64,000 bases of DNA, taken from positions 1,027,787 through 1,091,786 of the forward strand of contig OZ241369.1 in NCBI GenBank assembly GCA_965200215.1, in the 5' to 3' direction. Source of the stretch: Alphaproteobacteria bacterium (GTDB lineage: Bacteria; Pseudomonadota; Alphaproteobacteria; SP197). Numbering within the stretch: the stretch's first letter is position 1; each line of letters begins with the position of its first letter. Positions 8,596 through 63,804 of the stretch are shown here, piece by piece. The position numbers and the translations under genes are program-made. The notes under the pieces are model-generated. The model did not search any database. It saw nothing but the letters and a program-made list of their open reading frames with translations, and had not been told where the DNA came from.

Positions 8596-8599
8596 GGGC

Positions 8600-10194: not shown

Positions 10195-10540
10195 GTGGTG
10201 GGGGTGTGCCTGGCGGTGGTTAGTGGCTAGTGGCTAGTGGCTAGTGGCCAGTAGCCAGTGGTCAGTGGCCAGGTGCCAGTGGTGCGAGCGGTGCCTGGCG
10301 GTGGGGGTGGGGCGTTGACGGGCCTTTGGCCCGTTTGCCGGCGGGACGCCGGCGCTCCCAGGGGGCGGGACGCTCGGTCGGTGCCTGGGGGCGGGACGCT
10401 GGCGGGGGTGCCTGGTGGTGGGCGGGGGTGCGTGGGCGGGCCGGACGGCCTGGCGGGGGCTTGTGGCTGGCGGCGGTGCCTGGGGGCGTGTGGCTGGCGA
10501 TGGTGGCTGGGGGTGGGTTTACTTCGCCTTTGGGGGCGGC
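10195..10540. repeat. composite GC-rich repeat element
   Basis: Heptamer array 10200-10290 + core. Confidence 0.7.
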
Positions 10541-13077: not shown

Positions 13078-13155
13078 GGTGGCTATAGCTCAGCAGGTTA
13101 GAGCGCCTGGTTGTGGTCCAGGAGGCCGTCGGTTCGAATCCGACTAGCCACCCCA
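13078..13155 (+). tRNA. tRNA-His (anticodon GTG) with encoded G-1 and CCA
   Basis: Cloverleaf by eye: GGTGGCTA / D-arm GCTCAGCAGGTTAGAGC / anticodon stem CCTGG-TTGTGGT-CCAGG / T-arm GTCGGTTCGAATCCGAC / TAGCCACC-CCA. Very similar to E. coli tRNA-His. Confidence 0.9.
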
Positions 13156-14932: not shown

Positions 14933-15135
14933 TGGTTAGTGGTTAGTGGTTAGTGGTTAGTGGTTAGTGAGAGCGGGGGTGGGGGTGGTGCCTGGCGGTG
15001 GGCGGTGGTGCGTTGACGGGCCTGCGGCCCGTTGCCGGCGGGACGCCGGCGCTCCCAGGGGGCGTGACGCTGGCGGCGGTGCCTGGGGGGCGCGGGTGAC
15101 GGACGGCGGTGGCTGGGGGGCGCGGGTGGCCGGAT
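14880..15135. repeat. composite GC-rich repeat element
   Basis: Heptamer array (GGTTAGT x6) + core. Confidence 0.7.
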
Positions 15136-16126: not shown

Positions 16127-16129
16127 TGG

Positions 16130-16460
16130 GTGGGGGTTAGTGGCTAGTGGTTAGTGGCCGGTGGCCGGTGGCTAGTGGTTAGTGGTTAGTGGGAGCGGGT
16201 GGTGGCGGCGGTGCCTGGCGGTGGGGGCGGTGCGTCGGCGGGCCTCCGGCGCTCCCAGGGGGGCGCGGGTGGCACCGGCGGTGCCTGGGGGCGGGCTTCG
16301 CCGGTGGTGCCTGGCGGCGGACGCCGGCGCTCGGGGGAATTTCGTGCGCGGGCGGGCCTTGCGGCCCGCCGGGGGGCGGGACGCTCGGGCGGTGCCTGGC
16401 GGCGGGATGCTGGCGCTCCCAGGGGGCGGTGGCACCGGCGGTGGCCGGGGGTGCCGCTAG
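16130..16460. repeat. composite GC-rich repeat element
   Basis: Heptamers + two cores. Confidence 0.7.
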
Positions 16461-19629: not shown

Positions 19630-22600
19630 ATGAGTGGACGATTTTTCGAGCGCCCGATCCTGAACTCGCCCTATGAGCGTCCGCAGCGCTACTGGAAGCT
19701 GGACGAGCACGGCCAGCCCAGCGACCTGGTCGTGCCTTGCCGCCGGGAGGTCGATTTCATCACCCCGATCCCCCAACCCAGGAAGCGCAGGGGCGGCAGG
19801 GGGCAGCCGACGCTGGCCCTGGAAAACGAGGCGGCGCGGCGGCTGTCCAGCGAAGGGCAGCGATACGATCTGGCCACCGCCATCAACGCCATCCGCCAGC
19901 GGGTGGACCGCTGGCGGGCGCTGCCGGAGGCGCAATGGCGGGTGACGCCGGAAACCGCCCGTCTGCTCCGCCACTGGCGTGGCCATCGCTTCGCCGATTT
20001 CCGGCCCTTCTTCTGCCAGGTCGAGGCGGTGGAGACCGCAATCTGGCTGACCGAGGTCGCGCCGGCCATCGGCGGTACCGGGCGGGTGTTTCTCGACCAT
20101 CTGGCGACGGTCAACGACGAGGCCAATCCCGGCCTCGCCCGGCTGGCCCTGAAGCTGGCCACCGGGGCCGGCAAGACCACGGTGATGGCGATGCTGATCG
20201 CCTGGCAGACGGTCAACGCGGTGCGCCACCCGGGCAGCCGGCGCTTCACGCGCGGTTTTCTGGTGACGACGCCCGGCATCACCATCCGCGACCGGTTGCG
20301 CGTGCTCCAGCCCAACGACCCCGACAGCTACTATCGCAGCCGCGAACTGGTGCCCGCCGACATGCTGGCCGATCTGGAGCGGGCGAAGATCGTCATCACC
20401 AACTTCCACGCCTTCGGGCGGCGCGAGACGATGACGGTCTCCAAGGGCGGGCGGGCCCTGCTCCAGGGCCGCGGCGGGGCGCTGCCGTCGCTGGAGAGCG
20501 AAGGGCAGATGCTGCGGCGCGTCATGCCGGAACTGATGGGCATGAAGGGCGTCATGGCGCTGAACGACGAAGCCCATCACTGCTATCGGGAAAAGCCGGG
20601 CGAGGCGGACGAGGGCGAGCTGGCCGGCGACGAGCGCCGGGAAGCCGAAGACAACCGCGAGGCGGCCAGGCTCTGGATCTCCGGCCTGGAAGCGGTGGGG
20701 CGCAAGCTGGGGCTGGCCCGCGTCGTCGACCTTTCGGCGACGCCGTTCTTCCTGCGCGGTTCCGGCTATGCCGAAGGGACGCTGTTTCCCTGGACGGTGA
20801 GCGATTTCTCGCTGATGGACGCCATCGAATGCGGCATCGTCAAGCTGCCGCGGGTGCCGGTGGCCGACAACGACCCAAGCGCCGACGTCCCCAAATTCCG
20901 CAATCTGTGGGAGCATGTCGGCAAGCGGATGCCGAAGAAGGGCGCCGCCGGGGCGGGAAGCCTCGATCCCCTGAAGATCCCCGTCGAGCTGCAGACGGCG
21001 CTGGAAGCCCTCTATGGGCATTACGAGAGGACCTTCGAGCTGTGGCAGCAGGCCGGCATCGACGTGCCGCCCTGTTTCATCGTCGTGTGCAACAACACCG
21101 CCACCTCGAAGCTGCTGTTCGACTACATCGCCGGCTTCGAGCGCCGCCAGGGCGACGGCTCCACCGCGCCGGTGCCCGGGCGCCTGTCCCTGTTCCGCAA
21201 TTGGGACGAGAACGGCGTGCGCCTGGGGCGGCCCCGCACCGTCCTCATCGACAGCCGCCAGCTGGAGTCCGGCGAGGCCCTGGATCCGCGCTTCCGCGCC
21301 CTGGCCGCCGGCGAGATCGAACGCTTCCGCCGCGAGATCGTCGAACGCACCGGCGACCGCCGCCAGGCCGACAACCTTTCCGACCAGGAGCTGCTGCGCG
21401 AGGTTCTCAACACCGTCGGCAAGGCGGGGCGGCTGGGCGGCGACATTCGCTGCGTGGTCTCCGTCTCCATGCTGACCGAGGGCTGGGACGCCAACACCGT
21501 CACCCACATCCTGGGCGTGCGCGCCTTCGGGACGCAGCTTCTGTGCGAGCAGGTGGTGGGCCGCGCCCTGCGCCGCCATTGCTACGAGCTCAACGAAGAC
21601 GGCCTCTTCGACGCCGAATATGCCGACGTGTTCGGCATCCCCTTCGACTTCACGGCCAGGCCGGTGGCGGTGGCCCCGCAACCGCCGCGCAAGGTGGTGC
21701 AGGTGAAGGCCATCGCCGAGCGCGCCAGGCTGGAGATCCGCTTCCCGCGCGTCGCCGGCTACCGGGTGGAACTGCCCGAAGAACGCCTGGAAGCCCGTTT
21801 CGACGCCGATTCCACCCTGGTGCTGACGCCCGAATGTGTCGGCCCCTCCGTCACCCACAACGAGGGCATCGTCGGCGAAGGCGTGGACCTGCACATCAAG
21901 CACCTCGACGGCGTGCGCCGGGCCACCCTGCTCTTCCATCTCGCCAAGTATCTGCTGGAGACGAAATATCACGACGCCGACGAAGCGCCCAAGCAGCACC
22001 TGTTCGGCCAGCTGAAGTCGATCGCCGGCCAGTGGCTGGACCGCCATCTGGTCTGCAAAGGCGGCACCCGCCAGGCGCAGCTTCTCTACCGGCAGCTGGC
22101 CGACTTGGCCTGCGAGCGCATCGCGCGGGCCATCACCGTCCGCTATGCCGACCAGCGCCCGGTGACGGCGGTGCTCGACCCCTACAACCCGGAAGGCTCC
22201 ACCGCCTGGGTCCATTTCGCCACCTCAAAGGCCACCTGGCGCACCCATCCCGCCCGCTGCCACATCGACCACGTGGTCTGCGACAGCAATTGGGAGGCGG
22301 AGTTCTGCCGCGTCGCCGAGGGGCATCCGGCCGTCCTCGCCTATGCCAAGAACCAGGGCCTGGGACTGGAGATCCCCTGGAGCCAGGGGGCGGAGCCGCG
22401 CATCTATCTGCCCGATTTCGTGCTGCGCCTGGACGACGGGCGCGGAGCCGACGATCCGCTGCATCTGATCGTCGAGATCAAGGGCTGGCAAGGCGAGGAG
22501 GCCAAGGACAAGAAGGCGACGGTGGAGACCTACTGGATCCCCGGCGTCAACCGGCTGGCCCGCTTCGGGCGCTGGGCCTTCGCCGAGTTTCGCGACGTCT

Positions 22601-22665
22601 GGGAGATCGAGGACGGCTTTGCGCGGCTGGTGGCGGGGCTGCGGGGTGGGGGCGTTAGTGGATAG
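19630..22665 (+). CDS. type III restriction enzyme Res-like subunit (SF2 helicase with DEAH box LNDEAHHC + C-terminal endonuclease region)
   Basis: ATG 19630 within ORF 19423..22665. Walker A LATGAGKT. DEAH motif. 1011 aa. C-terminal stop inside a heptamer array. Confidence 0.75.
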   Translation: MSGRFFERPILNSPYERPQRYWKLDEHGQPSDLVVPCRREVDFITPIPQPRKRRGGRGQPTLALENEAARRLSSEGQRYDLATAINAIRQRVDRWRALPEAQWRVTPETARLLRHWRGHRFADFRPFFCQVEAVETAIWLTEVAPAIGGTGRVFLDHLATVNDEANPGLARLALKLATGAGKTTVMAMLIAWQTVNAVRHPGSRRFTRGFLVTTPGITIRDRLRVLQPNDPDSYYRSRELVPADMLADLERAKIVITNFHAFGRRETMTVSKGGRALLQGRGGALPSLESEGQMLRRVMPELMGMKGVMALNDEAHHCYREKPGEADEGELAGDERREAEDNREAARLWISGLEAVGRKLGLARVVDLSATPFFLRGSGYAEGTLFPWTVSDFSLMDAIECGIVKLPRVPVADNDPSADVPKFRNLWEHVGKRMPKKGAAGAGSLDPLKIPVELQTALEALYGHYERTFELWQQAGIDVPPCFIVVCNNTATSKLLFDYIAGFERRQGDGSTAPVPGRLSLFRNWDENGVRLGRPRTVLIDSRQLESGEALDPRFRALAAGEIERFRREIVERTGDRRQADNLSDQELLREVLNTVGKAGRLGGDIRCVVSVSMLTEGWDANTVTHILGVRAFGTQLLCEQVVGRALRRHCYELNEDGLFDAEYADVFGIPFDFTARPVAVAPQPPRKVVQVKAIAERARLEIRFPRVAGYRVELPEERLEARFDADSTLVLTPECVGPSVTHNEGIVGEGVDLHIKHLDGVRRATLLFHLAKYLLETKYHDADEAPKQHLFGQLKSIAGQWLDRHLVCKGGTRQAQLLYRQLADLACERIARAITVRYADQRPVTAVLDPYNPEGSTAWVHFATSKATWRTHPARCHIDHVVCDSNWEAEFCRVAEGHPAVLAYAKNQGLGLEIPWSQGAEPRIYLPDFVLRLDDGRGADDPLHLIVEIKGWQGEEAKDKKATVETYWIPGVNRLARFGRWAFAEFRDVWEIEDGFARLVAGLRGGGVSG

Positions 22666-22870
22666 TGGATAGTGGATAGTGGATAGTGGTTAGTGGCCGG
22701 TGGCCAGTAGCCAGTGGTCGGTGGGAGTGGGTGGCTGGTGGTGGTGCCTGGCGGCTGGGGGGTGGTGCGTTGACGGGCCTTTGGGCCGGTAGCCGGTGGC
22801 CGGTGGTCGGTGAGAGTGGGTGGCTGGCGGTGGTGCCTGGGGGTGGCTGACGGCGGCTGCCTGTTTTCAC
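22655..22870. repeat. composite GC-rich repeat element (heptamer arrays GGATAGT/GGTTAGT...)
   Basis: Motifs. Confidence 0.7.
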
Positions 22871-22984
22871 GCCGGGCGCTACCCTCTCGAGCGTTTCTTG
22901 ACGTATGCTGGAGCCCTGTCGGACGATGATTGCGATTTTGTCCGCTCTCATGGGCATGGACAGGGATTCGGGGAGGTTCTCTGG

Positions 22985-23206
22985 ATGTCCGATCCCGTCG
23001 TATTCGACACGCTCGCCTATGCGCGCCGCCTGAAAGAGGCGGGGGTCGACGACAAGCAGGCCGAAGCTCATGCGGAGGCGGCCCGCGACTCCATGATGGG
23101 GAGCGTCGCCACCAGAAGCGACCTTCTCAAGATGGAGAACAGCTTGACCTGGAAACTGCTTGGCGTCGCGGGCCTGCTGTTTGCCGCGCTCAAGCTTGTT
23201 CCTTGA
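22985..23206 (+). CDS. DUF1640-family coiled-coil/TM protein (third copy in window)
   Basis: ATG 22985 (MSDPVVFDTLAYARRLKEAG...TRSDL...WKLLGVAGLLFAALKLVP). Confidence 0.65.
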   Translation: MSDPVVFDTLAYARRLKEAGVDDKQAEAHAEAARDSMMGSVATRSDLLKMENSLTWKLLGVAGLLFAALKLVP

Positions 23207-23408
23207 GTGTCCCTGGATAGTGGCCGGTGGCCGGTGGCCAGTGGTCGGTGGGAGTGGGTGGCTGGCGGTGGTGCCTGGCGGCTGGGGAGTGGGGCGTTGA
23301 CGGGCCTTTGGGCCGTTTGCCGGTGGGGTGGCGGTGCTCCCAGGGGGCGGTGGCACCGGCGGTGCCTGCCTGTTTTCATGCCGGGGCGCTGCCCGATGAA
23401 AACACGTG

Positions 23409-23437
23409 TTGACGACGCCTGCCGCGCGTGGGACAAT
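23409..23437 (+). promoter_or_regulatory. putative sigma70-type promoter (TTGACG-17-GACAAT) in an AT-richer stretch upstream of the hypothetical/protease genes
   Basis: By eye; about 190 nt upstream of ATG 23627. Confidence 0.3.
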
Positions 23438-23626
23438 GCGATGTGTTGGCATCCGCCCCAAGCGAGTGGCCCGCTTACCTGCCGGGGGCGTGCGCCGAGA
23501 GCTTGGGGCTTCGTTTGTTCCTTTTTGCAACCCATATCCGGAGGGATCTTTCCTGAAGAGATCGCACCCCACCTGGGCCAAACGACATTTGACACCATGG
23601 AACAACCGCAAACGGGGAGGACGGAC

Positions 23627-23908
23627 ATGAGACCACAGAAGACGGCGGCAGCCGACAGCCAGCAGCAGGAGGTCGACCGCAATTACAAGGCCTTCAAGAC
23701 GATGCTTCCCGAACTCATCAAGAGCGACGCCGGCAGAACGGCCCTGATGCGCGACGGAAAGGTCGTGGCCTGCTTCGATACGGATCGCGACGCCATCCAG
23801 GCCGGCCGCACGATGTTCGAGGATCAGCGCTTCTCGATTCAGGAAGTCACCAATCGCGCCGTCGATCTTGGGTATTTCTCCCGTGTCGGCGTTCTCGGGG
23901 CGGTTTGA
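23627..23908 (+). CDS. hypothetical protein (93 aa)
   Basis: ORF with GGGGAGGA RBS 7 nt upstream; no recognisable family. Confidence 0.45.
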   Translation: MRPQKTAAADSQQQEVDRNYKAFKTMLPELIKSDAGRTALMRDGKVVACFDTDRDAIQAGRTMFEDQRFSIQEVTNRAVDLGYFSRVGVLGAV

Positions 23909-24332
23909 CTGGAACGCCGGCCTGATCTGGCAGGTCGGCTTCGTTTCTGGAGCCACCCCAGTGGCGGCTGCGGGCACTCCCGGCGCGCTTCATGTCTGCC
24001 CAGCACTCGTCGACACCGGTGCGACACGGACTTGTATTGCAAAATCCGTTGTCGAAGCCCTTGGCCTGCACTCCATCGGAAGAACAAGCATGGACACTGC
24101 TGGAGGAGCGGCCAATGCCAATATCTACGACACGCATATCGTTCTATTGACGGATCATGCGCAGAACCCAGACGGGACCGTCGATGTACAAGCTCAATTA
24201 TTTCATAATATCAGGGTGCTGGAATTCGTCGCCGATGGGAATACGCCCTATCAGGCCTTGATCGGGCGTGACATTCTGCGCATCGGTATGCTCACGATGT
24301 CGCGGGATGGCTATTTTTCCTTTGCGTTTTGA
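23868..24332 (+). CDS. retropepsin-like (clan AA) aspartic protease family protein; start uncertain (TTG 23868 or GTG about 23883, or frameshift fusion with the upstream ORF)
   Basis: Motifs ALVDTGATRTCI (D-T/S-G-A active site) and ALIGRDIL flap/helix region. Confidence 0.55.
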   Translation: MGISPVSAFSGRFDWNAGLIWQVGFVSGATPVAAAGTPGALHVCPALVDTGATRTCIAKSVVEALGLHSIGRTSMDTAGGAANANIYDTHIVLLTDHAQNPDGTVDVQAQLFHNIRVLEFVADGNTPYQALIGRDILRIGMLTMSRDGYFSFAF

Positions 24333-24389
24333 GCTACGACACGAACAGGGGACTCCCGCTCCTGAGCGCCGTCGAGCCAGGCTGAGCCT

Positions 24390-25208
24390 ATGGCGAAGAA
24401 GCCCGGTGGAAAGGGCGAGAGCATCGCAACCCTCGATCCCGACGCGCTCCAGAAGCTCCTGTGCGAGCGTCTGTGCGAGGACGTAAGGGTCGAACGCCGT
24501 CCCGACGGCGCGCTGATGCTGCGCGCCCATTTCCGCTTCCCGGACGGCGATGGCTACCCCATCCATCTTTGCCAGGCGCCCGCCGGCGGGCTGCGGCTGT
24601 CGGATCGCGGCCACACCCTCATGCATCTGAGCTATGAGCACGACGTCGACATGTTCATGGACGGCACCCGCGCCATGCTGCTCGAACGCATCCTGACGGA
24701 GAGCGGTTTGCAGTGGGAGGGCGGCGCCTTGTGCCTGGACACCGCCCCGGAACGGCTGCCGGAGGCGCTGTTCCGCTTCGGCCAGGCGCTCACCAGGGTA
24801 TACGACCTGACCTTCCTCTCCCGTTCCAATGTCGGTTCCACCTTTTACGACGATCTCGCCGACCTTCTCCGCCAGCTGGTGGACGAGGACAAGATGCAGC
24901 GCGATTACCGGCCGGACGTGCCCAATGCCGACGCCTATCCGGTGGATTACCGCATCGAGGGCAAGGACGGCGTGCCGCTGTTCCTCTACGGCGTGCCCAA
25001 TCGCGACAAGGCGCGGCTAACGACCGTCATGTTGTCGCACTTCCATCGCCACGCGCTCGATTTCGAGTCCATCGTCGTGTTCGAGGACCAGGCCGAGATG
25101 CCCAGGATGGACCTGGCCCGCCTTTCGGACGTCGGCGGGGAGATGGTCGCATCGCTGGAATCGCGGGAGGATCTCGCACGCAAGCTGCGGTGGCGGATTG
25201 CGGCGTGA
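24390..25208 (+). CDS. hypothetical protein (DUF1828/DUF1829-like two-domain protein; assignment tentative)
   Basis: ORF track; codon usage typical of the host GC. Confidence 0.5.
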   Translation: MAKKPGGKGESIATLDPDALQKLLCERLCEDVRVERRPDGALMLRAHFRFPDGDGYPIHLCQAPAGGLRLSDRGHTLMHLSYEHDVDMFMDGTRAMLLERILTESGLQWEGGALCLDTAPERLPEALFRFGQALTRVYDLTFLSRSNVGSTFYDDLADLLRQLVDEDKMQRDYRPDVPNADAYPVDYRIEGKDGVPLFLYGVPNRDKARLTTVMLSHFHRHALDFESIVVFEDQAEMPRMDLARLSDVGGEMVASLESREDLARKLRWRIAA

Positions 25209-25214
25209 TGGCGC

Positions 25215-25600
25215 GGTGGGGGGTAGTGGCTGGTGGGTAGTGGATAGTGGATAGTGGATAGTGGTTAGTGGCCGGTAGCCAGTGGCCGGTGGTCGGTGGG
25301 AGTGGGTGGCTGGTGGCGGTGCCTAGCGGCTGGGGGGTGGTGTGTCGACGGGGCTTTGGGCCGTTTGCCGGTGGGGTGGCGGCGCTCGGGGGAATTTCGT
25401 GCGCGGGCGGGCCGGACGGCCCGCCGGGGGGCGGGACGCTGGCGGCGGTGCCTGGGGGTGGTGGCTGGCGGTGGCTGCCTGTTTTCATGCCGGGGCGCTG
25501 CCCCTCTCCTCCAGGTGCGCCCGTTCCCACTGGCCACTGGCCACCGGCCACCGGCTACTGGCCACCGGCCACTAACCACTAACCACTAGCCACTGGCCCC
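25215..25600. repeat. composite GC-rich repeat element (two heptamer arrays in inverted orientation flanking core)
   Basis: Motifs. Confidence 0.7.
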
Positions 25601-25665
25601 GCCCGGCGTATCGACGGTTTGGCTTTTCCGGGCCACACTGCGGGTGTGGCGTGGGGGTGGATTTC

Positions 25666-28600
25666 ATGGTGGGGAAGCGCAGGGGGGCGAAGAGCAAGGG
25701 GGTTGCCGCCTTTACCCATGAGGGGGCGCGGCGGGCGAACATTCCCACCGCCGAGCTCGACGCGGTGATGGCCGAGGGCGAGAAGGCGGCGGTTCGCATC
25801 GCCTATGAGCGCCGCAACCGAGATCTGGACCCGCAGCTGGTCTGGCGCGGCAAGGACGAGCAGGACCAGGCCGATCTGGTGGTCCAGGCGCCGCCGCTCT
25901 ACATCCAGGAGAAGGTGCACCCCAAGGCGCTGATCGACGACCTGCTGCGCCAGTCGAAGCGGCGGCGCGACGAGGCGGCCGAAGAGGCCCCGGACCTGTT
26001 CGCCGATTTCAACGGCCTGCCCGAAGGCGCCGCCCGAACCGAGTTCTACCGCCACGACGCCAACTGGTCGAACCGCATGATCCTGGGCGACGCGCTGCGG
26101 GTGATGGCCTCGCTGGCCGAGCGCGAGGGCCTGCGCGGCAAGGTGCAGGCGATCTATATCGACCCGCCCTACGGCATCCGCTTCAACTCCAACTTCCAGT
26201 GGTCCACCGGCAGCCGCGACGTGAAGGACGGCAAGGCGGCGCATATCACCCGCGAGCCGGAGCAGGTGAAGGCCTTTCGCGACACCTGGCGCGACGGCAT
26301 CCATTCCTATCTCTCCTATCTGCGCGACCGGCTGACGGTGGCCCGCGAGCTGCTGGCCCCGAGCGGCTCGGTATTCGTGCAGATCGGCGACGAGAACGTC
26401 CACCGGGTGCGGGCGGTGATGGACGAGGTGTTCGGGGAGGGGAATTTCGTCAACCAGATCAACTGCCGCACGAATAGCGGAACCACAAGAGGCGACTCAC
26501 TCAAGCGAACGAACGACTACCTGCTTTGGTACGCAAAGAATATCGAAAGCAAGAAGTTTCGGCGATTGCTGGTTGAGCGAGACGTCGAAACAAACATGTA
26601 TAGTCAGCTCCTTTTTGAGGATTTGTCAGTTCGTCCCATGACTCAGGAAGAGAAGAAAAAGCCAACGCTAATTCCCGACACGGCTAGAGCATATAGGAAA
26701 TTACCACTCCACTCGATGAACGCCGGAGACCATACACCGCGGAAAGCATTCGGAAGGTATTGGAAAATACCATCTAACCGCAGTTGGCGCCATTCCCTGG
26801 CCGGTTTCGACCGGCTCTTGCGGTCATCTCGAATACAAGCAGACCTGAGTGCTCTTAGCAGCCGCTATTTCCACAGCGACTATATCGCCTCCGAGCTAAC
26901 CGAGACTTGGGTGGATACAGGCCCCGAAGTGGACAAGTCCTACGTAGTCCAGACGTCCGAGCGGATTGTCCAACGCTGCCTGCTGATGACCACCGACCCC
27001 GGCGACCTGGTGCTGGACCCGACCTGCGGTTCCGGCACCACCGCCTATGTCGCCGAGCAATGGGGCCGGCGCTGGATCACCATCGACACCTCGCGGGTGG
27101 CGCTGGCGCTGGCCCGGGCGCGGATCATGGGCGCGCGCTATCCCTGGTATATCCTGGCCGACAGCCCGGAAGGGCAGAGGAAGGAAGCGGAACTGGACCG
27201 GCGCGCGCCTTCCGAGGCGGCGACCGGCGGCGATGTCCGCCAGGGCTTCGTCTATCGGCGGGTGCCGCATGTGACGCTGAAATCGATCGCCAACAATGCG
27301 GAGATCGATGCGATCTGGGAGAGGTGGGAGGGGGTGTTGGGGGCGTTGCGGAGTCAACTATCAGTTGCCAGTGGCCAGTCGCCAGTGGCCAGTGACCGGC
27401 AACCGGCGACTGGCGACCGGCCACCGGCCACCGGCAACCGGCCACTGGAGGAATGGCAGATTCCCCGCGAGGCTGGCGCCGGCTGGCCCGACGAGGCGAA
27501 GGCGGCGCATGCCGAGTTCTGGCAGGCGCGCATCGGACGGCAGAAGGAGATCGACGCCTCCATCGCCGCCAGGGCCGACAGCGAATATCTCTACGACAAG
27601 CCCTATGAGGACAGGGAGCGCATCCGCGTCGCCGGCCCGTTCACGGTGGAAAGCCTGGCGCCGCACCGCACCGTGGCCAGCGAGGGGGAAGGCGCCGCCG
27701 AAGACGGCCACGGATACCACGGCGGCGGGGCCTTCCCGGAACGCGATTTCACCGCCCTGGTGCTGGAGCAGCTGCGGGCTGCCGGCGTGCAGCAGGCCCG
27801 CAAGGACGACCGCATCGACATCGCCTCCATCGAGGGCTGGCCGGGGCGTTCCATCTGCGCCACGGGGCGCTTTCGCGAAGGCGGGGCCGAACGCCGGGCC
27901 GGCATCCTGATCGGCCCCGAATTCGGCACCGTTTCCAAGCCCGACCTGACCGCCGCCGCCCGCGAGGCGGCCGAGGCCGGTTTCGACGCGCTGATCGCCT
28001 GCGCCTTCAGCTACGACGCCCATGCCAGCGAGTTCGACCGCCTGGGCCGGGTGCCGGTGCTGAAGGCGCGCATGAACGCCGATCTGCACATGGCCGGCGA
28101 GCTGAAGAACACCGGCAAGGGGAACCTGTTCGTGGTGTTCGGGGAGCCTGATATAGAAGTGGCCGGTGGCCGGTGGCTAGTGGCCAGAAACGGGAAGATG
28201 ATCGCGCGTTATGAGCACGTCAAAGAGCTATCAGGACTTGGAAGTCTGGAAGAAATCAATGGAGCTGGCGGAAGAGGTCTATCGGCTCTCTGCCGGGTGG
28301 CCGGCGGAGGAGCGATTCGGTCTGACCGGTCAGATGCGCCGCGCGACGGTGTCCATCCCGGCGAACATCGCGGAGGGAGCGGAGCGGCACGGAACGCGGG
28401 AGTTTCTCCACTTTCTGGGGATAGCGAGCGGCTCCCTGGCGGAAACGGAGACCCTTCTGATTCTGGCCCGGAGGCTGGGGATGTCTCCGCCCGAACGGAT
28501 TTCACCGCTTCTGGAACGAGCCGGGGAGATCGGACGGATGCTCAACGGCCTCAAGCGATCGCTGCGATCGAGGCATTGAACGACGGCGACTTCCCGCTTT

Positions 28601-28944
28601 CACTGACCACCGGCCACTGGCTACAGGTCGCCATTCGCGGTATCGACATTTATCGCCCCGACACGGGTCAGATTCACAGCGACGGTCCCGACGGCATCGC
28701 GCTGTGGTTCGTGGACAGCGACTACAACGAGGAGAGCTTTTTCGTTCGCCAGGCCTATTTCCTGGGCGCCAACGACCCCTACAAGGCGCTGAAGACGACG
28801 CTGAAGGCCGAGATCGACCCGCAGGCCTGGGCGAGCCTGAACAGCGACACCTCCCGCCCCTTCCCCGCCCCCGCCTCGGGCCGCATCGCCGTCAAGGTCA
28901 TCAACCACCTGGGCGACGAGGCGATGAAGGTGTTCCGGGTGTGA
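25666..28944 (+). CDS. type III-like Mod DNA methyltransferase (beta-class N6A/N4C MTase: motif IV IYIDPPYG precedes motif I DPTCGSGTT), mosaic ORF with AT-richer TRD (about 26460-26900) and two repeat-associated insertions; integrity uncertain
   Basis: ORF track 25651..28944 (ATG 25666 alternative). MTase motifs. Conserved C-terminal module ...RIAVKVINHLGDEAMKVFRV. Confidence 0.65.
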   Translation: MVGKRRGAKSKGVAAFTHEGARRANIPTAELDAVMAEGEKAAVRIAYERRNRDLDPQLVWRGKDEQDQADLVVQAPPLYIQEKVHPKALIDDLLRQSKRRRDEAAEEAPDLFADFNGLPEGAARTEFYRHDANWSNRMILGDALRVMASLAEREGLRGKVQAIYIDPPYGIRFNSNFQWSTGSRDVKDGKAAHITREPEQVKAFRDTWRDGIHSYLSYLRDRLTVARELLAPSGSVFVQIGDENVHRVRAVMDEVFGEGNFVNQINCRTNSGTTRGDSLKRTNDYLLWYAKNIESKKFRRLLVERDVETNMYSQLLFEDLSVRPMTQEEKKKPTLIPDTARAYRKLPLHSMNAGDHTPRKAFGRYWKIPSNRSWRHSLAGFDRLLRSSRIQADLSALSSRYFHSDYIASELTETWVDTGPEVDKSYVVQTSERIVQRCLLMTTDPGDLVLDPTCGSGTTAYVAEQWGRRWITIDTSRVALALARARIMGARYPWYILADSPEGQRKEAELDRRAPSEAATGGDVRQGFVYRRVPHVTLKSIANNAEIDAIWERWEGVLGALRSQLSVASGQSPVASDRQPATGDRPPATGNRPLEEWQIPREAGAGWPDEAKAAHAEFWQARIGRQKEIDASIAARADSEYLYDKPYEDRERIRVAGPFTVESLAPHRTVASEGEGAAEDGHGYHGGGAFPERDFTALVLEQLRAAGVQQARKDDRIDIASIEGWPGRSICATGRFREGGAERRAGILIGPEFGTVSKPDLTAAAREAAEAGFDALIACAFSYDAHASEFDRLGRVPVLKARMNADLHMAGELKNTGKGNLFVVFGEPDIEVAGGRWLVARNGKMIARYEHVKELSGLGSLEEINGAGGRGLSALCRVAGGGAIRSDRSDAPRDGVHPGEHRGGSGAARNAGVSPLSGDSERLPGGNGDPSDSGPEAGDVSARTDFTASGTSRGDRTDAQRPQAIAAIEALNDGDFPLSLTTGHWLQVAIRGIDIYRPDTGQIHSDGPDGIALWFVDSDYNEESFFVRQAYFLGANDPYKALKTTLKAEIDPQAWASLNSDTSRPFPAPASGRIAVKVINHLGDEAMKVFRV
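27355..27450. repeat. palindromic heptamer-repeat array inserted in-frame inside the Mod coding region
   Basis: GCCAGTG/GCCAGTC units followed by their inverse (CCGGCAA/CCGGCGA...); translates as VASGQSPVASDRQPATGDRPPATGNRP. Confidence 0.75.
28211..28579 (+). CDS. four-helix-bundle protein (23S rRNA intervening-sequence protein family-like), nested inside the Mod ORF in a different frame
   Basis: ORF track. Sequence MSTSKSYQDLEVWKKSMELAEEVYRLS...IPANIAEG...ETETLLILARRLG matches my recollection of that family. Flanked by heptamer repeats at about 28160-28195 and 28595-28625. Confidence 0.6.
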   Translation: MSTSKSYQDLEVWKKSMELAEEVYRLSAGWPAEERFGLTGQMRRATVSIPANIAEGAERHGTREFLHFLGIASGSLAETETLLILARRLGMSPPERISPLLERAGEIGRMLNGLKRSLRSRH

Positions 28945-28948
28945 GGCC

Positions 28949-30079
28949 ATGGCGGGGCTGGACTGGATCACCATCGAGGGTTTCAAGAGCATCGCCTCCA
29001 TCGAGAGGCTGCCGCTGCGCCCGATCAACGTGCTGATCGGCGCCAACGGTTCGGGGAAGTCGAATTTCGTCGAGGCCTTTTCGTTTCTGCACGCGATACG
29101 GTCCAGGAAGCATCACGACCATGTCATGCGCGCGGGGGGCGGCGACAGGATTCTTCATTTCGGCGCGCGAACGACGCCCCAGTTGAAGCTTCACATCTCT
29201 TTCGAAGAACAAGTGTATCAATATGAGATAGCACTGGCGCCGGACGATGGAGATCACCTCTTTCCGTCGGGGGAATGTACCTATTTCTGGAACAAACATG
29301 TGTATGAACCTTACATCGAGCCCCTTATGGGAAGCCATGGCCATGCGGGCATCAGCCGCCCGTATTTCAAGCCAACAACACCCACAGCGAATTATGTCCA
29401 GAAGCACCTGGACAGCTGGCGCCTGTATCACTTCCCGGATACCGGCGCCGCATCGCCGCTGAAGAAGACGGGCGACGTAAACGACAACCGCTTTCTGCGG
29501 CCCGACGGCTCCAACCTGGCGGCGTTCCTGTATCGGCTGCGCGAGACGGAGCAGGACCGCTACCGGCTGATACGGGACACGGTGCGCCTGGCGGCGCCGT
29601 TCTTCGAGGATTTCGCGCTCGAACCCCTGGTCCTGCACGAGGACAAGATCCCCCTGGAGTGGAAGCACCGGGGGAAAGACGCCTATTTCGACGCCTCCTC
29701 CCTTTCGGACGGCACCCTGCGCTTCATGGCGCTGGCGACGCTGCTGCTTCAGCCGCAGACGCTGCGGCCCTCGGCCATCCTCCTGGACGAGCCGGAACTG
29801 GGCCTGCACCCCTATGCCATCGCGCTTCTCGCCTCGCTGATCGGGCAGGCTTCGGCCGAGACCCAGGTGATTCTGGCCACCCAGTCCTCGCTGCTGCTGG
29901 ACCATTTCAGCCCCGAAGACGTGCTGGTGGCGGAGCGGGCGCGCGGGGCCACCACGCTGACCCGGCTGAAGCCCGAAGAGCTGAAGGAATGGCTGGACGA
30001 CTACAGCCTGGGCCAGCTGTGGGAGAAGAACGAGTTCGGCGGGCGCCCCTCACCCGAAGAGGCGGGCGAGAGGGGATGA
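28949..30079 (+). CDS. AAA_21/ABC-type ATPase (OLD/abortive-infection-like ATPase; Walker A GANGSGKSN, Walker B LLDEPELGLHP)
   Basis: ORF track; start immediately after the Mod stop. Confidence 0.7.
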   Translation: MAGLDWITIEGFKSIASIERLPLRPINVLIGANGSGKSNFVEAFSFLHAIRSRKHHDHVMRAGGGDRILHFGARTTPQLKLHISFEEQVYQYEIALAPDDGDHLFPSGECTYFWNKHVYEPYIEPLMGSHGHAGISRPYFKPTTPTANYVQKHLDSWRLYHFPDTGAASPLKKTGDVNDNRFLRPDGSNLAAFLYRLRETEQDRYRLIRDTVRLAAPFFEDFALEPLVLHEDKIPLEWKHRGKDAYFDASSLSDGTLRFMALATLLLQPQTLRPSAILLDEPELGLHPYAIALLASLIGQASAETQVILATQSSLLLDHFSPEDVLVAERARGATTLTRLKPEELKEWLDDYSLGQLWEKNEFGGRPSPEEAGERG

Positions 30080-30321
30080 CGCGCCTGCTCGTGCATGTGG
30101 AAGGCCAGACGGAGGAGAGTTTCGTCGACCGGATTCTGGCGCCTCACCTTTACCGGCGCGGCTTTTCTTCGATCGGCGCCCGCCTGCTCGGCAACGCCCG
30201 CCAGCGCGAGCGGCGCGGCGGCATCAAGCCCTGGCACGCGGCCCGCAGGGACATCCTGGGCCATCTGCGGCAGGACCGCGAGGCCGTGGCCAGTGGCCGG
30301 TGGCTAGTGGTTAGTGGCTAG
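30076..30321 (+). pseudogene. DUF4276-like gene remnant (N-terminal about 80 aa: MTRLLVHVEGQTEESFVDRILAPHLY...), truncated by insertion of a repeat element
   Basis: ATGA start/stop overlap with the ATPase. Family members are about 200 aa (from memory). ORF ends inside a long heptamer array. Confidence 0.5.
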
Positions 30322-30560
30322 TGGTTAGTGGCTAGTGGTTAGTGGCTAGTGGTTAGTGGCTAGTGGTTAGTGGTCGGTGGGCGGTGGCCAGTAGCCGGTG
30401 GCTAGTGGTTAGTGGTTAGTGGGAGCGGGTGGTGGGGGTGGTGCCTGGCGGTGGGGTGTGGTGCGTTGACGGGCCTGCGGCCCGTTTGCCGGCGGGACGC
30501 CGGCGCTCCCAGGGGGGCGCCGGGTGGCGGGGGCGCGGTAAGGGCGGCAACCATGGCGAG
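30290..30560. repeat. composite GC-rich repeat element with long heptamer array ((GGCTAGT GGTTAGT) x7)
   Basis: Direct inspection. Confidence 0.8.
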
Positions 30561-30640
30561 GAGGCGATGCGAGGTGTTTCGGGTGTGACGGCGACTCCAA
30601 CATCCAGTATCGTATGCGACACGGCTTGGGGGGATTGAGC

Positions 30641-32116
30641 ATGAGCGGACCTGCCAGCGATTCTTCGCCCAATCGGTCGCCGAAGGCTCCCGATGTGCGC
30701 ATCTCCGTCAGCAATTTCGGCCCCATCGCGAAGGGAAGCATCGACCTTCGGCCCATGAACATCTTCGTCGGGCCGAGCAACACGGGCAAGACCTATTTTG
30801 CCACCTTGATCTATGCAATTCATCGAATCACGAGGGGTTTTCCGCGACTCCCTCCAACTATGAGCTACATTTTCAACGATGTTGAAAATTTTGCGGGGGT
30901 GATTTACCAGATTGTTAAGAATTTTGACTCTGGACAAAGAAATCATCCTGGATCCGGGCGCGACCGGATTCAGCCCACGCTTATCGATCACAATCCCGTG
31001 GCCCATGACTGGGAAATTGAATTAGAGCGTTGCTTCGATGTCGGTGCTCTTTCCGAACTGATTCAGACTCAAAGCGAATCAACCGGAGCAAAGATCGATC
31101 TGTCAATCGAGGATAAAAAGAGCCTCCTTTGGAATTTTCATGTAAAGGTGCCGACTCACGGTATTCGGGGCGATGGAAAGATAGGGAATTTCAAAATTGA
31201 GCACATATTTCCTGATTTCGAAAAGAAAGCTGAAAAAGTATTCTCGGCCAATTCAATAATAGAGGCTATAACCAACCTACAGAAACTGTTCGAATTCGAG
31301 AAATCAAACGAATCCGACGTGTACTACCTGCCATCCGACAGAGGCGGTCTCATACATAGCCACCCCGCTATCGCAATATCTTTGCTTAAACGTGCAACTC
31401 GACTGAACACCAAGCGCCATTCGGAGATCCCCACTTTCTCCGGGGTTATGACCGATTTCATGCGGCATATCATCGCCTATGAGGATTCCGAACTGCGTGA
31501 CGAAAAGCCGGAGAACGAGTTGGCGAAAATCGCGAGCGAATTGGAAAGCCGGGTGCTCGATGGAAGGATCGAGACTGTCCGGGCAGCGTCCCGCGGCTAT
31601 CCTGACGTGGTGTATCGGCCGGAGGGAATGGAAAAGGGCATGCGGTTGAATCGCGCCTCGTCCATGGTATCCGAACTCGCGCCGGTGGTCCTCTTCATCC
31701 GTGGCCATGTTCGCGTCGGCGACACCGTAATCATCGACGAGCCGGAAGCCCATCTTCATCCCGCCGCGCAGACCGAGATGGCGACGGCGCTGGCGCGTCT
31801 GGTGCGGGCCGGCGTTCGGGTGGTGATGACCACGCACAGCGAATGGCTGCTCCAGGAGATCGGCAACCTGATGCGGGAGGGGGAGTTGGGGGAAGGGAAT
31901 GGCGACTCTCCGAGTCTTCATCCTCGCGACGTCGGCGCCTGGCTATTCAAGAAGAAAGGATCGGAGGGCTCCAACGTGGAGGAGATTCGATTCGACCGCA
32001 TCGAAGGCATCGGGCCGCCGGATTACGAAGACGTCGCCGAAAGCCTCTATAACCGCTCGGCAGAGCTGCAGAACCGCCTCGCAGAGACGGACGGCGGCGG
32101 CGAGTCGGGGGCATGA
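30641..32116 (+). CDS. AAA-type ATPase (AAA_15/21-like; Walker A VGPSNTGKTYF, Walker B VIIDEPEAHLHP), AT-richer gene
   Basis: ATG 30641 (GGGGGA RBS) within ORF 30614..32116. Confidence 0.7.
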   Translation: MSGPASDSSPNRSPKAPDVRISVSNFGPIAKGSIDLRPMNIFVGPSNTGKTYFATLIYAIHRITRGFPRLPPTMSYIFNDVENFAGVIYQIVKNFDSGQRNHPGSGRDRIQPTLIDHNPVAHDWEIELERCFDVGALSELIQTQSESTGAKIDLSIEDKKSLLWNFHVKVPTHGIRGDGKIGNFKIEHIFPDFEKKAEKVFSANSIIEAITNLQKLFEFEKSNESDVYYLPSDRGGLIHSHPAIAISLLKRATRLNTKRHSEIPTFSGVMTDFMRHIIAYEDSELRDEKPENELAKIASELESRVLDGRIETVRAASRGYPDVVYRPEGMEKGMRLNRASSMVSELAPVVLFIRGHVRVGDTVIIDEPEAHLHPAAQTEMATALARLVRAGVRVVMTTHSEWLLQEIGNLMREGELGEGNGDSPSLHPRDVGAWLFKKKGSEGSNVEEIRFDRIEGIGPPDYEDVAESLYNRSAELQNRLAETDGGGESGA

Positions 32117-32619: not shown

Positions 32620-32990
32620 AGGCCGGGGGCGGCGGTGGCCAGTGGTCAGTCGCGGGTGGTGGGGGTGGTGCCTGGCGGTGGGGTCGGTGCGTTGACGGGC
32701 CTTTGGCCCGTTTGCCGGCGGGACGCCGGCGCTCCCAGGGGGCGGGACGCTCGGTCAGTGGTTAGTGGCTAGTGGTCAGTGGCCGGGCGCCAGTGGTGCG
32801 GGTGGTGTGTGGCGGTGCCTGGCGGTGGGGACGGTGCGTTGACGGGCCTTTGGCCCGCTTGCCGGCGGGACGCCGGCGCTCGGGGGATGGTGTATGGGCG
32901 GGCCTGACGGCCCGCCGGGGGGCGTGACGCTGGCGGCGGTGGCTGGGGGCGCGGGTGGTAGGGGCGGTACCTGAAGGTGGGGGGTGGCTT
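32620..32990. repeat. composite GC-rich repeat element (two cores)
   Basis: Motifs. Confidence 0.7.
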
Positions 32991-63776: not shown

Positions 63777-63804
63777 TTGACAGCCCCGCTTCGCCGCCTA
63801 TAGT
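63777..63804 (+). promoter_or_regulatory. near-consensus sigma70-type promoter for rplU (TTGACA-16-TATAGT)
   Basis: By eye, about 50 nt upstream of the rplU start. Confidence 0.5.

What the first reader, a model, noticed from the sequence alone, without database searches (positions are those of the whole stretch)
26460..26900. AT-richer target-recognition domain segment inside Mod suggests TRD swapping
Between motif IV (IYIDPPYG, about 26160) and motif I (DPTCGSGTT, about 27010) the Mod ORF contains an about 440-bp stretch of much lower GC and different codon usage (aat/aaa/tat-rich) than the flanking high-GC catalytic regions. In beta-class MTases this position is the TRD. A compositionally foreign TRD is the classic signature of specificity switching by domain shuffling.
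Basis: partly seen in the sequence, partly recalled or inferred. Interest (0 to 1): 0.5.

Follow-up and report, generated by a model that had tools for sequence, protein, structure and literature searches.

The report
Swappable AT-rich recognition domain in Mod
The AT-richer stretch is real and is the DNA-recognition domain of a Type III-like methyltransferase that is exchanged as a block between near-identical genes, which is a known way to change restriction specificity, but every relative shows the same low GC, so it does not mark a recent foreign import here.

Summary
Observation confirmed. Inside the 1097-aa Mod ORF (25651-28944), nt 26451-26970 has GC 0.515 against 0.71 for the window. 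GC3 there is 0.50-0.60 against about 0.90 in the flanks. The segment lies between motif IV (26152-26175) and motif I (27016-27042), where Type III Mods carry the TRD.

Interpretation partly supported. A syntenic locus from a very close relative (L001) is about 99% identical on both sides but unalignable across exactly 26451-26970. That is an en bloc TRD replacement. Among about 200 family members there are at least 80 TRD clusters, and only about 20% of pairs with at least 95% identical backbones share one.

Two points weaken the 'compositionally foreign' argument:
- The GC3 deficit occurs in 80 of 80 informative loci across many phyla (mean -0.29, window -0.30), including low-GC hosts.
- The window's TRD has diverged from its L002 counterpart as much as the backbone has. 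It is therefore probably the older resident allele, and L001 the replaced one.

This is a new member of a known kind; modA and modH TRD exchange, with lower GC in the domain, is already described.

A more unusual thing was seen in passing. A four-helix-bundle gene sits in another frame inside the same Mod ORF, and the Mod frame is kept open through it in 20 of 20 loci.

The parts
25651..28944 (+). Mod ORF (1097 aa from GTG 25651; the database protein P0001 starts at ATG 25666). It is a long Type III-like beta-class N6/N4 DNA methyltransferase.
   Evidence: ORF list. Pfam N6_N4_Mtase scores 112.9 bits against a cutoff of 26.7, over aa 165-486. PADLOC MTase_III PDLC03632 scores 1233 bits. The best solved relatives are the Type III Mods 6k0w, 4zcf and 7dsu.
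25711..26450 (+). Conserved left arm, ending in 'FGEGNF'. It holds the N-terminal region and catalytic motif IV (IYIDPPYG, 26152-26175) and serves as the left substrate for homologous recombination.
   Evidence: 98.9% nt identity to L001 with no gaps. Identity ends at nt 26450. aa 141-262 are 92-99% conserved across the family.
26451..26970 (+). TRD cassette (aa 268-440): the AT-shifted, hypervariable block that is exchanged as a unit.
   Evidence: GC 0.515 and GC3 0.60. No alignable homology to L001 (43% in a forced alignment with 56 gaps), but 83% nt and 84% aa identity to L002. Family conservation drops to 0.28-0.51 over aa 271-430. At least 80 TRD clusters among about 200 homologs.
26971..27340 (+). 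Conserved right arm, starting at 'QRCLLMTTDPGD'. It holds the AdoMet-binding motif I (DPTCGSGTT, 27016-27042) and serves as the right recombination substrate.
   Evidence: 97.8% nt identity to L001. aa 441-500 are 88-99% conserved across the family. Motif coordinates.
19630..22665 (+). Res partner gene. The ORF is open from 19423, but the likely start is ATG 19630. It does not determine specificity.
   Evidence: NCBIfam NF046055 'BPTD_3080 family restriction endonuclease' scores 1286 bits against a cutoff of 800. Pfam ResIII scores 22.3 bits, just under its 22.5 cutoff. It is 99% identical in aa to the L001 Res, and a Res homolog lies upstream on the same strand in 76/82 loci.
27356..27460 (+). 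In-frame insert of heptamer repeats inside Mod (aa about 571-600, 'SVASGQSPV...DRPPATGNRPLE'). This is a second variable module.
   Evidence: Repeat families D1, D6 and D9. TRF reports period 7 with 6.9 copies. 128/200 homologs have the short ancestral form, and the others carry inserts of variable length.
28162..28623 (+). 462-nt in-frame insert in a beta-hairpin loop of the Mod C-terminal domain, bounded by inverted heptamer arrays (28158-28187 and 28603-28625). This is a third exchangeable module.
   Evidence: 60 homologous loci have a 24-nt loop at this site, and 20 have inserts of 366, 435, 456 or 462 nt. Window vs L001 identity here is 60% nt inside a backbone about 99% identical; window vs L002 is 93%.
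28211..28579 (+). Nested 122-aa four-helix-bundle gene (23S rRNA IVS protein family), in frame +1 relative to Mod.
   Evidence: Pfam 23S_rRNA_IVP E = 7.7e-39. TIGR02436 E = 1e-37. The substitution pattern shows this is the frame under amino-acid selection. The Mod frame has 0 stops in 20/20 loci, against 4-12 in the third frame.

Best explanation
The AT-richer stretch (26451-26970) is the target-recognition domain of the Mod subunit of a Type III-like res-mod restriction-modification system.

In this gene family the TRD behaves as a hypervariable cassette sitting between two almost invariant catalytic blocks. The left block ends at 'FGEGNF' and the right block starts at 'QRCLLMTTDPGD...DPTCGSGTT'. 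Homologous recombination within those blocks, after DNA uptake from a relative, replaces the whole TRD at once. Because Mod carries the only DNA-recognition module, this should re-target both methylation and restriction.

The replacement itself is shown by comparison with L001. The change of specificity is inferred.

The low GC3 is a persistent property of the cassette in every host, not a mark of a recent foreign import into this genome. The most likely cause, which is inference, is this: diverged TRDs cannot recombine internally, so they escape GC-biased gene conversion and the strong purifying selection acting on the flanks, and they drift with the universal AT-biased mutation pressure. The frequently recombining conserved arms are held at high GC3.

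In the window/L001 pair, the window most probably keeps the older allele and the L001 lineage received a new TRD.
For: **The segment is a TRD.**
- Pfam, PADLOC and PDB matches, with motif IV before motif I.
- EcoP15I Mod aligns on both sides of the block.

**En bloc replacement.**
- L001 is syntenic and 95-98% identical over Res, DUF1828, Mod and the ATPase genes.
- Inside mod it is 98.9% and 97.8-98.8% identical on the two sides, and unalignable across 26451-26970, with sharp breakpoints.

**The pattern is family-wide.**
- At least 80 TRD clusters among about 200 homologs.
- Only about 20% of pairs with at least 95% backbone identity share a cluster, and many pairs at 97-99% differ.
- The conservation profile drops exactly at aa 268-432.

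**The same TRD occurs on diverged backbones.** TRD identity is 84%, 79% and 77% on backbones of 82-83%, 85% and 74-75%.

**The AT shift is universal and stationary.**
- TRD GC3 is below core GC3 in 80/80 informative loci (mean -0.29, Wilcoxon p = 8e-15).
- It still tracks host GC (slope 1.1, r = 0.60).
- Window vs L002 third-position divergence is 0.31 in the TRD and 0.20-0.31 in the backbone, with pos3 changes running in both directions (18 vs 29).

**Other variable segments behave alike.** Other hypervariable segments of the same island that differ from L001 are also AT-shifted (AAA_21 aa 31-150, AAA_15 aa 61-330).

**No internal donor.** There are no silent TRD copies and no flanking inverted repeats in the 64 kb.

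**Literature.**
- En bloc exchange of the modA recognition domain, with lower GC than the flanks: PMC3311624.
- GC-biased gene conversion in bacteria: PMC4450053, title and abstract only.
Against: - No methylome or biochemical data, so the change of specificity is inferred.
- The donor of the L001 TRD is unsampled, so the direction of the event rests on parsimony. An import into the window from an L002-like donor at a coincidentally matching distance is not excluded.
- The gene-conversion explanation for low GC3 was not tested directly. A cassette pool biased to AT-richer hosts, combined with partial amelioration, could contribute.
- The full-length AlphaFold model is poor (mean pLDDT 52), so the structural assignment of the TRD rests mainly on sequence alignment to solved Type III Mods.
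- The loci are metagenome assemblies, and no taxon name was recovered for the window or L001.
Confidence: 0.8

Rival explanations
1. One reading: this genome recently acquired a TRD from a lower-GC donor, and the low GC is the un-ameliorated trace of that event.
For: - GC3 is 0.60 in the TRD against about 0.90 in the flanks.
- The nearest backbone (L001) carries a different TRD.
- RM genes often deviate in composition because of horizontal transfer (PMC2853133).
- The same argument has been made for modA12 (PMC3311624).
Against: - The deficit is present in 80/80 informative relatives, including hosts at 45-49% GC where the TRD is below host composition.
- Window vs L002 synonymous-site divergence in the TRD equals that of the backbone, and both keep GC3 near 0.55-0.60. 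The state has therefore persisted through about 31% third-position divergence in GC-rich hosts.
- TRD and backbone identities co-vary for the window's TRD cluster, whereas L001's TRD is the orphan.
Confidence: 0.13
2. There is no exchange at all. The segment is simply a fast-evolving region whose amino-acid requirements (Lys/Asn/Tyr/Ile-rich DNA-binding surface) lower its GC.
For: - GC1 and GC2 also fall in the segment.
- All TRDs share scaffold residues (D289, W293, K302, R304, W420), so they are homologous variants of one fold.
Against: - GC3 falls by 0.3, which amino-acid content cannot explain.
- Flanks about 99% identical next to an unalignable block cannot arise by point substitution on that timescale.
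- TRD clusters are distributed incongruently with backbones.
Confidence: 0.03
3. Programmed intragenomic switching: a shufflon or phase-variable system that swaps the expressed TRD with silent cassettes, as in invertible Type I hsdS loci.
For: - The locus is full of repeats, and imperfect heptamer arrays lie inside the mod ORF.
- Type III mod genes are often phase-variable in pathogens (PMC5909438, listed).
Against: - None of 200 TRD queries hits the window outside mod, by tblastn or blastn.
- There are no inverted or direct repeats bracketing the TRD.
- No recombinase domain was found in the eight ORFs scanned between 19.4 and 32.6 kb.
- The heptamer arrays lie elsewhere in the gene and are imperfect (87% matches).
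Confidence: 0.03
4. Metagenome assembly artefact: strain-level collapse produced a chimeric mod gene.
For: The window, L001 and L002 all come from metagenome assemblies.
Against: - Both alleles are intact, in-frame ORFs with all motifs.
- The junctions coincide with the family-wide conservation boundaries.
- The same TRD type recurs on many independent contigs.
- The contigs are long: 2.76 Mb, 126 kb and 3.5 Mb.
Confidence: 0.01

Closest known systems
modA alleles of Neisseria and Haemophilus influenzae (Type III Mod DNA-recognition-domain exchange; Gawthorne et al. 2012, PMC3311624)
   Same: - A central variable recognition domain lies between conserved 5' and 3' regions.
- Alleles share under 40% identity in that domain.
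- The domain is transferred en bloc by homologous recombination in the conserved flanks.
- The same domain is found on diverged backbones.
- The domain has lower GC than the flanks.
   Different: - Here the Mod is about 920-1100 aa with a large extra C-terminal region.
- The gene order is res then mod.
- No 5' simple-sequence repeat for ON/OFF switching was found.
- The hosts are environmental MAG lineages from many phyla.
- The GC deficit is shown to be universal and stationary, not evidence of a single transfer.
Helicobacter pylori Type III mod / Type I hsdS 'domain movement' (Furuta, Kobayashi and colleagues; recalled from memory, not read here)
   Same: Specificity diversifies by moving whole TRDs between homologous methyltransferase genes.
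   Different: In H. pylori, movement also occurs between different loci within one genome. No second locus or internal donor was found in this window.
EcoP15I Mod (PDB 4zcf) and other solved Type III Mods (6k0w, 7dsu)
   Same: Beta-class order, with motif IV, then the TRD, then motif I. The sequence aligns on both sides of the TRD (E 2.5e-12 to 3.7e-16). These are also the best Foldseek matches.
   Different: - Identity is only 13-30%.
- This Mod has about 100 extra N-terminal residues and about 400-600 extra C-terminal residues.
- The partner Res belongs to the BPTD_3080 family (NF046055).
- Pfam ResIII falls just below its cutoff.
Rickettsia palindromic elements and in-frame MITEs (mentioned in PMC10969869; otherwise from memory). 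This comparison applies to the side finding only.
   Same: Palindromic repeat elements are inserted in-frame into protein-coding genes and translated as part of the host protein without destroying it.
   Different: Here the element carries its own gene (a four-helix-bundle protein) in another frame. It sits at one fixed site of one gene family across many phyla.

Membership tests
Type III R-M Mod subunit (beta-class N6-adenine/N4-cytosine MTase) | Circularly permuted motif order: catalytic motif IV (DPPY) is N-terminal to AdoMet motif I (FxGxG), with the TRD between them | tested here: met
   IYIDPPYG is at aa 168-175 and DPTCGSGTT at aa 456-464. Pfam N6_N4_Mtase spans aa 165-486 at 112.9 bits, against a cutoff of 26.7.
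Type III R-M Mod subunit (beta-class N6-adenine/N4-cytosine MTase) | Sequence or profile membership among curated Type III methyltransferases, and similarity to solved Type III Mods | tested here: met
   PADLOC MTase_III PDLC03632 scores 1233 bits over profile positions 73-863 of 983. PDB 6k0w E = 3.7e-16, 4zcf E = 2.5e-12, 7dsu E = 1e-8. The same three are the top Foldseek hits, although the model is of low confidence.
Type III R-M system | Cognate Res subunit (SF2 helicase plus nuclease) encoded next to mod | tested here: met
   NF046055 BPTD_3080-family restriction endonuclease scores 1286 bits against a cutoff of 800. A Res homolog lies upstream on the same strand in 76/82 loci, often directly abutting mod. 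Pfam ResIII, at 22.3 bits, is just under its 22.5 cutoff.
Type III R-M system | Classical operon order mod then res | tested here: not met
   The order is res then mod in the window and in the 13 of the 76 Res-positive loci whose coordinates were printed. In the window about 3 kb of accessory genes and repeats separates the two.
Type III R-M system | Hemi-methylation of an asymmetric site, and ATP-dependent cleavage requiring two inversely oriented sites | not testable with these tools
   This needs a methylome and biochemistry.
Allelic TRD/DRD exchange (modA/modH type) | Near-identical flanks with an unrelated central domain between alleles of close relatives | tested here: met
   Window vs L001: 98.9% on the left arm, unalignable in the TRD, 97.8% on the right arm. 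Many further pairs with 97-99% identical backbones carry different TRD clusters.
Allelic TRD/DRD exchange (modA/modH type) | The same recognition domain is present on diverged backbones | tested here: met
   The window's TRD cluster has 38 members, on backbones 74-85% identical.
Allelic TRD/DRD exchange (modA/modH type) | Different TRD alleles methylate different motifs | not testable with these tools
   No methylome data are available.
Phasevarion (phase-variable Type III mod) | A simple-sequence repeat tract in the ORF whose copy number shifts the frame | tested here: inconclusive
   TRF reported no tract of period 1-6 anywhere in mod (minimum score 60, so short tracts would be missed). An imperfect 7-nt array (27395-27442, 6.9 copies, 87% matches) lies in-frame inside mod. 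Its length varies among homologs but is always in-frame. No ON/OFF variants were observed.
Invertible or shufflon-type specificity switching (Type I hsdS-like) | Silent TRD cassettes, inverted repeats and a site-specific recombinase at the locus | tested here: not met
   No TRD-like sequence lies outside mod in the 64 kb. No repeats bracket the TRD. No recombinase domain was found in the eight ORFs scanned between 19.4 and 32.6 kb.

The most novel reading that the evidence does not exclude
This pan-phylum Mod family is a mosaic of independently exchangeable modules embedded in an almost invariant scaffold. The modules are the TRD, a heptamer-repeat insert, and a nested four-helix-bundle gene.

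The universal and stationary GC3 deficit of the TRD is about -0.3 in every host from 45 to 71% GC. It would be a direct footprint of recombination-dependent GC enrichment (biased gene conversion) acting on the conserved arms but not on the non-recombining cassette.

If so, hypervariable specificity domains of defence genes would be natural within-gene controls for measuring GC-biased gene conversion in bacteria. Low GC in such domains should then stop being read as evidence of foreign origin.
Probability: 0.3. Interest if true: 0.55.

Novelty: new member of a known kind. Interest (0 to 1): 0.3.

Why it matters
TRD replacement changes which sequences a cell methylates and restricts. The window and L001 strains, otherwise about 97-98% identical at this locus, should therefore be genetically isolated from each other and differently protected against phage. 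That is ordinary for Type III systems.

The useful corrective is methodological. In this family the AT shift of the recognition domain is universal and long-lived, so a compositional dip inside a methyltransferase gene is a good locator of the TRD but a poor clock or proof of recent transfer.

The locus also shows that the same rule holds for variable segments of two neighbouring defence ATPase genes: variable means AT-shifted.

Tried and rejected
- **TRD-only word-indexed protein search.** It returned one fragment and missed even the self hit, so it was uninformative.
- **Exhaustive TRD-only HMMER search.** It found 364 representatives, at most 43% identical among full-length proteins. On inspection these are more distant members of the same Mod superfamily, with backbones about 43-47% identical. 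This gives no evidence for TRD transfer between unrelated methyltransferase families.
- **Full-length AlphaFold2 model.** Mean pLDDT was 52 and pTM 0.27. It was used only as weak support; the Foldseek hits to BamHI (E about 0.1) were ignored.
- **Source of the window.** Look-up of the window's own protein on contigs failed, and cluster look-up gave no names.
- **Literature.** 'BPTD_3080' gave nothing. Searches for a four-helix-bundle gene in R-M genes also gave nothing.
- **Rfam at gathering thresholds.** Only a tRNA at 13079-13152.
- **Silent cassettes or bracketing repeats around the TRD.** Searched for and not found.
- **Amino-acid composition as the cause of low GC.** Considered and rejected because GC3 carries the signal.
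- **Covariation between the 5' and 3' heptamer arms of the nested-gene insert.** Cognate arm pairs (-37.8 kcal/mol) are barely better than non-cognate ones (-35.2). This gives pairing potential but no covariation proof.
Full report
**1. The observation.**

The ORF 25651-28944 (+) encodes a 1097-aa protein. In 200-nt windows GC drops from 0.63-0.71 to 0.46-0.54 between about 26400 and 26900, then recovers. In 40-codon windows GC3 drops from 0.85-0.97 to 0.50-0.72 over aa about 261-440. The shift therefore lies in synonymous codon choice.

The comparatively defined block 26451-26970 has GC 0.515. The window mean is 0.710 (z = -3.5), and fewer than 1% of 520-nt windows are as low. Only two other places in the 64 kb reach GC 0.56 or below. 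A/T-ending codons make up 40% of the block against 16% of the rest of the backbone (p = 2.5e-10).

- The right edge is 26970, not 26900.
- The codon shift is general, not specific to AAT, AAA and TAT.

**2. What the gene is.**

- Pfam N6_N4_Mtase covers aa 165-486.
- PADLOC's Type III methyltransferase model PDLC03632 scores 1233 bits.
- The closest solved proteins are Type III Mods (6k0w, EcoP15I 4zcf, Mbo45V 7dsu). The same three top a Foldseek search with an admittedly poor model.
- EcoP15I Mod aligns with query residues 136-300 and 421-468. The block in between sits opposite the EcoP15I TRD.
- Upstream on the same strand lies a 1011-aa-class Res of the NCBIfam 'BPTD_3080 family restriction endonuclease' (1286 bits).
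- A Res homolog precedes mod in 76 of 82 related loci, often directly abutting it.

This is a two-gene Type III-like system with the unusual order res then mod and an unusually long Mod.

**3. Direct evidence for TRD exchange.**

The protein search returned a homolog, P0002, that is 77% identical overall. Windowed identity showed it is about 100% identical everywhere except aa 281-440 and aa 841-1000.

Its contig (L001) is syntenic with the window: Res, small genes, DUF1828, Mod and two AAA ATPase genes. It is 95-98% identical in nucleotides over those genes and over a flanking peptidase gene. It therefore comes from the same or a sister species.

Within mod the nucleotide identity runs as follows:

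| Segment | Identity to L001 |
|---|---|
| 25711-26450 | 98.9% |
| 26451-26970 | collapses to noise |
| 26971-28150 | 97.8-98.8% |

The left breakpoint falls right after GAGGGGAATTT(C/T)GT ('FGEGNFV'). The right one falls right before CAACGCTGCCTGCTGATGACC ('QRCLLMTT'). Both alleles are intact ORFs. This is an en bloc replacement of 520 nt between conserved arms.

**4. It is the rule in this family.**

I aligned about 200 relatives: 120 proteins and 80 genome loci, which come from Alphaproteobacteria, Dehalococcoidia, Latescibacterota, Poribacteria, Acidobacteriota, Methylococcales and others.
- aa 141-262 and 441-500 are 88-99% conserved.
- aa 271-430 drop to 28-51%.
- The TRDs fall into at least 80 clusters (at least 45% identity, single linkage).
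- Among pairs whose backbones are at least 95% identical, only about 20% share a TRD cluster. Dozens of pairs at 97-99% backbone identity carry unrelated TRDs.
- Conversely, the window's TRD type (38 members) occurs on backbones only 74-85% identical.
- All TRDs keep a few scaffold residues (D289, W293, K302, R304, W420), so they are variants of one fold.

**5. Why the compositional argument does not hold as stated.**

I extracted the codons of the N-terminal core, the TRD and the C-terminal core from each of 82 loci. TRD GC3 is lower than core GC3 in all 80 informative loci. The mean is -0.29, the window is -0.30, L001 is -0.40 and L002 is -0.37 (Wilcoxon p = 8e-15).

The deficit is independent of host GC (r = -0.14). 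It also holds in low-GC hosts such as L045, where locus GC is 0.45, core GC3 is 0.46 and TRD GC3 is 0.24. A pool of cassettes from a fixed lower-GC source therefore cannot explain it. TRD GC3 still follows host GC (slope 1.1, r = 0.60).

The window's TRD and its L002 counterpart differ at 31% of third positions. That matches the backbone (20-31%). Changes run in both directions, and GC3 is 0.60 and 0.54 in the TRD against about 0.9 in both backbones. The AT-shifted state has therefore persisted in GC-rich hosts for as long as these two lineages have been apart.

TRD and backbone identities co-vary for the window's cluster, whereas L001's TRD has no relative above 44% in the sample. Parsimony therefore makes the window's allele the resident one and L001's the import.

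Two more segments that differ between the window and L001 are also AT-shifted:
- AAA_21 gene, aa 31-150 (nt 29039-29398).
- AAA_15 gene, aa 61-330 (nt 30794-31603).

Their conserved parts sit at GC3 about 0.9. Low GC thus marks 'hypervariable cassette', not 'recently foreign'.

**6. Mechanism.**

Shown:
- A discrete cassette bounded by near-invariant arms.
- Replacement between close relatives.
- No internal donor, bracketing repeats or recombinase in the window.

Inferred:
- Incoming DNA from a relative recombines in the arms by RecA-type homologous recombination.
- The new TRD redirects Mod. Because Type III Res relies on Mod for recognition (established knowledge), it also redirects restriction. 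Res is 99% identical between the window and L001.
- The AT shift most plausibly reflects escape of the non-recombining, fast-turning-over cassette from GC-biased gene conversion and from the constraint that keeps the arms GC-rich, under AT-biased mutation (the concept is from PMC4450053). This last step is untested.

**7. Comparison with what is known.**

Gawthorne et al. (PMC3311624) describe the same thing for modA of Neisseria and Haemophilus:
- Recognition domains with 29-38% identity between alleles.
- En bloc transfer through conserved flanks.
- The same domain on diverged flanks.
- A domain GC content significantly lower than the 5' and 3' regions, which they read as evidence of horizontal transfer.

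Furuta et al. (PMC2853133) catalogue allelic TRD diversity in other R-M types. The present case is a new member of that kind, in an uncharacterised long-Mod, BPTD_3080-Res family from environmental bacteria. What the family-wide analysis adds is that the GC deficit is universal and stationary.

**8. Seen in passing, and more unusual.**

The second GC3 dip in the Mod frame (about 28170-28590) is a 122-aa four-helix-bundle gene. It belongs to the 23S rRNA intervening-sequence protein family (Pfam E = 8e-39, TIGR02436) and lies in frame +1 inside the Mod ORF.

- **Site.** The insert replaces a 24-nt beta-hairpin loop that 60 related loci have at that site.
- **Spread.** Twenty loci from many phyla carry the insert at the identical codon. 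It is always a multiple of 3 (366, 435, 456 or 462 nt) and always has the small gene in frame +1.
- **Frame kept open.** The Mod frame has zero stops in 20/20 loci, whereas the third frame has 4-12. Synonymous-codon shuffles give P(no stop) of 0.0035-0.24 per locus. The summed log10 P is -23, although the loci are not independent.
- **Which frame is selected.** Substitution patterns show only the small gene's frame is under amino-acid selection. The Mod frame is merely kept open.
- **Inverted heptamer arrays.** The insert is always bounded by inverted arrays of (A/G)GTGGNN heptamers that can pair (-38 against -25 kcal/mol for shuffled arms).
- **Co-occurrence.** Such arrays occur in all loci that carry the gene and in none of the about 60 that lack it. 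In the window's lineage they have also spread through intergenic regions.
- **Host range of the small gene.** Close homologs of the small protein that I looked up all sit inside this Mod family.
- **Exchange.** The window and L001 carry alleles only 52% identical here, inside a backbone about 99% identical. This is a second exchanged cassette.
- **Literature.** I found no description of this arrangement.

**9. Verdict.**

The segment is the TRD, and TRD swapping is demonstrated for this locus and family. The inference from composition to foreignness is not valid here, and the window's own TRD is probably the older allele. This is a known phenomenon in a new family. Interest is low to moderate for the finding itself, and higher for the nested gene noted in passing.

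Noticed in passing
window 28162-28623 (insert); nested ORF 28211-28579 (+); inverted heptamer arms 28158-28187 and 28603-28625: A 122-aa four-helix-bundle gene (23S rRNA IVS protein family, Pfam E = 8e-39) lies in frame +1 inside the Mod ORF. In 20 loci from many phyla the insert sits at the same codon, is a multiple of 3 in length, and leaves the Mod frame free of stops in 20/20 (third frame 4-12 stops; synonymous shuffles give a summed log10 P of -23). Only the small gene's frame is under amino-acid selection. Sixty loci have a 24-nt loop at the site instead. The window and L001 alleles are only 52% identical inside a Mod backbone about 99% identical. No description was found in the literature.
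   Followed up: yes
window 27356-27460 (Mod aa about 571-600); L084-L087: A second in-frame insert, made only of forward and reverse heptamer arrays, lies inside Mod. 128/200 homologs have the short ancestral form, and the others have inserts of variable length that are always in-frame. In L084-L087 a deletion joins this site to the four-helix-bundle insert and truncates Mod, which suggests the arrays mediate rearrangements. A 7-nt unit could in principle shift the frame by slippage, but the array is imperfect (87% matches).
   Followed up: partly
window 630-36772, e.g. 8593-9069, 10215-10513, 14892-14969, 16112-16329, 22630-22863, 23157-23390, 25205-25600, 30267-30510, 32627-32950: Arrays of (A/G)GTGGNN heptamers occur very often, 28 forward against 2 reverse, and are often part of composite repeats of about 165-170 nt between genes (MITE-like). 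Across related loci, heptamer arrays occur only where the four-helix-bundle gene is present in Mod. They are abundant outside Mod only in the window/L001 lineage. The closest published analogue found is the intergenic TAACTGA heptamer repeats of Beggiatoaceae (PMC4679880).
   Followed up: partly
window 29039-29398 (AAA_21 / HEC-01A-like gene 28949-30079) and 30794-31603 (AAA_15 gene 30614-32116): Two more AT-shifted segments (GC3 0.37-0.77 against about 0.9) lie inside neighbouring defence-type ATPase genes. These are exactly the parts that differ from L001 (17-63% aa identity per 30-aa block, mostly below 50%, against 83-100% in the conserved parts). The pattern of variable segment and AT shift is the same as in the TRD.
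   Followed up: partly
window 22665-25650: Res and Mod are separated by about 3 kb. This stretch holds a retroviral-type aspartyl-protease-like ORF (23868-24332), a DUF1828 protein (24390-25208; PADLOC candidate PDC-M24B) and repeat elements. In many distant relatives res abuts mod directly. DUF1828 accompanies the system in 9/82 loci.
   Followed up: partly
window 63061-63920: This is the third region of the window with GC at or below 0.56 in 520-nt windows. It was not examined.
   Followed up: no
window 45520-45906 and 3203-3370: Tandem repeats unrelated to the heptamers: a 146-nt unit x2.7 (93% matches) and an 84-nt unit x2.0.
   Followed up: no
Mod backbone, all loci (e.g. L004, L014, L045): The catalytic cores of this Mod are 82-90% identical in amino acids across phyla as distant as Dehalococcoidia, Alphaproteobacteria and Balneolales. 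Their GC3 is often well above that of the surrounding locus (e.g. L014: locus GC 0.49, core GC3 0.72). This points to very recent inter-phylum spread or to unusual constraint or gene conversion on the scaffold.
   Followed up: partly
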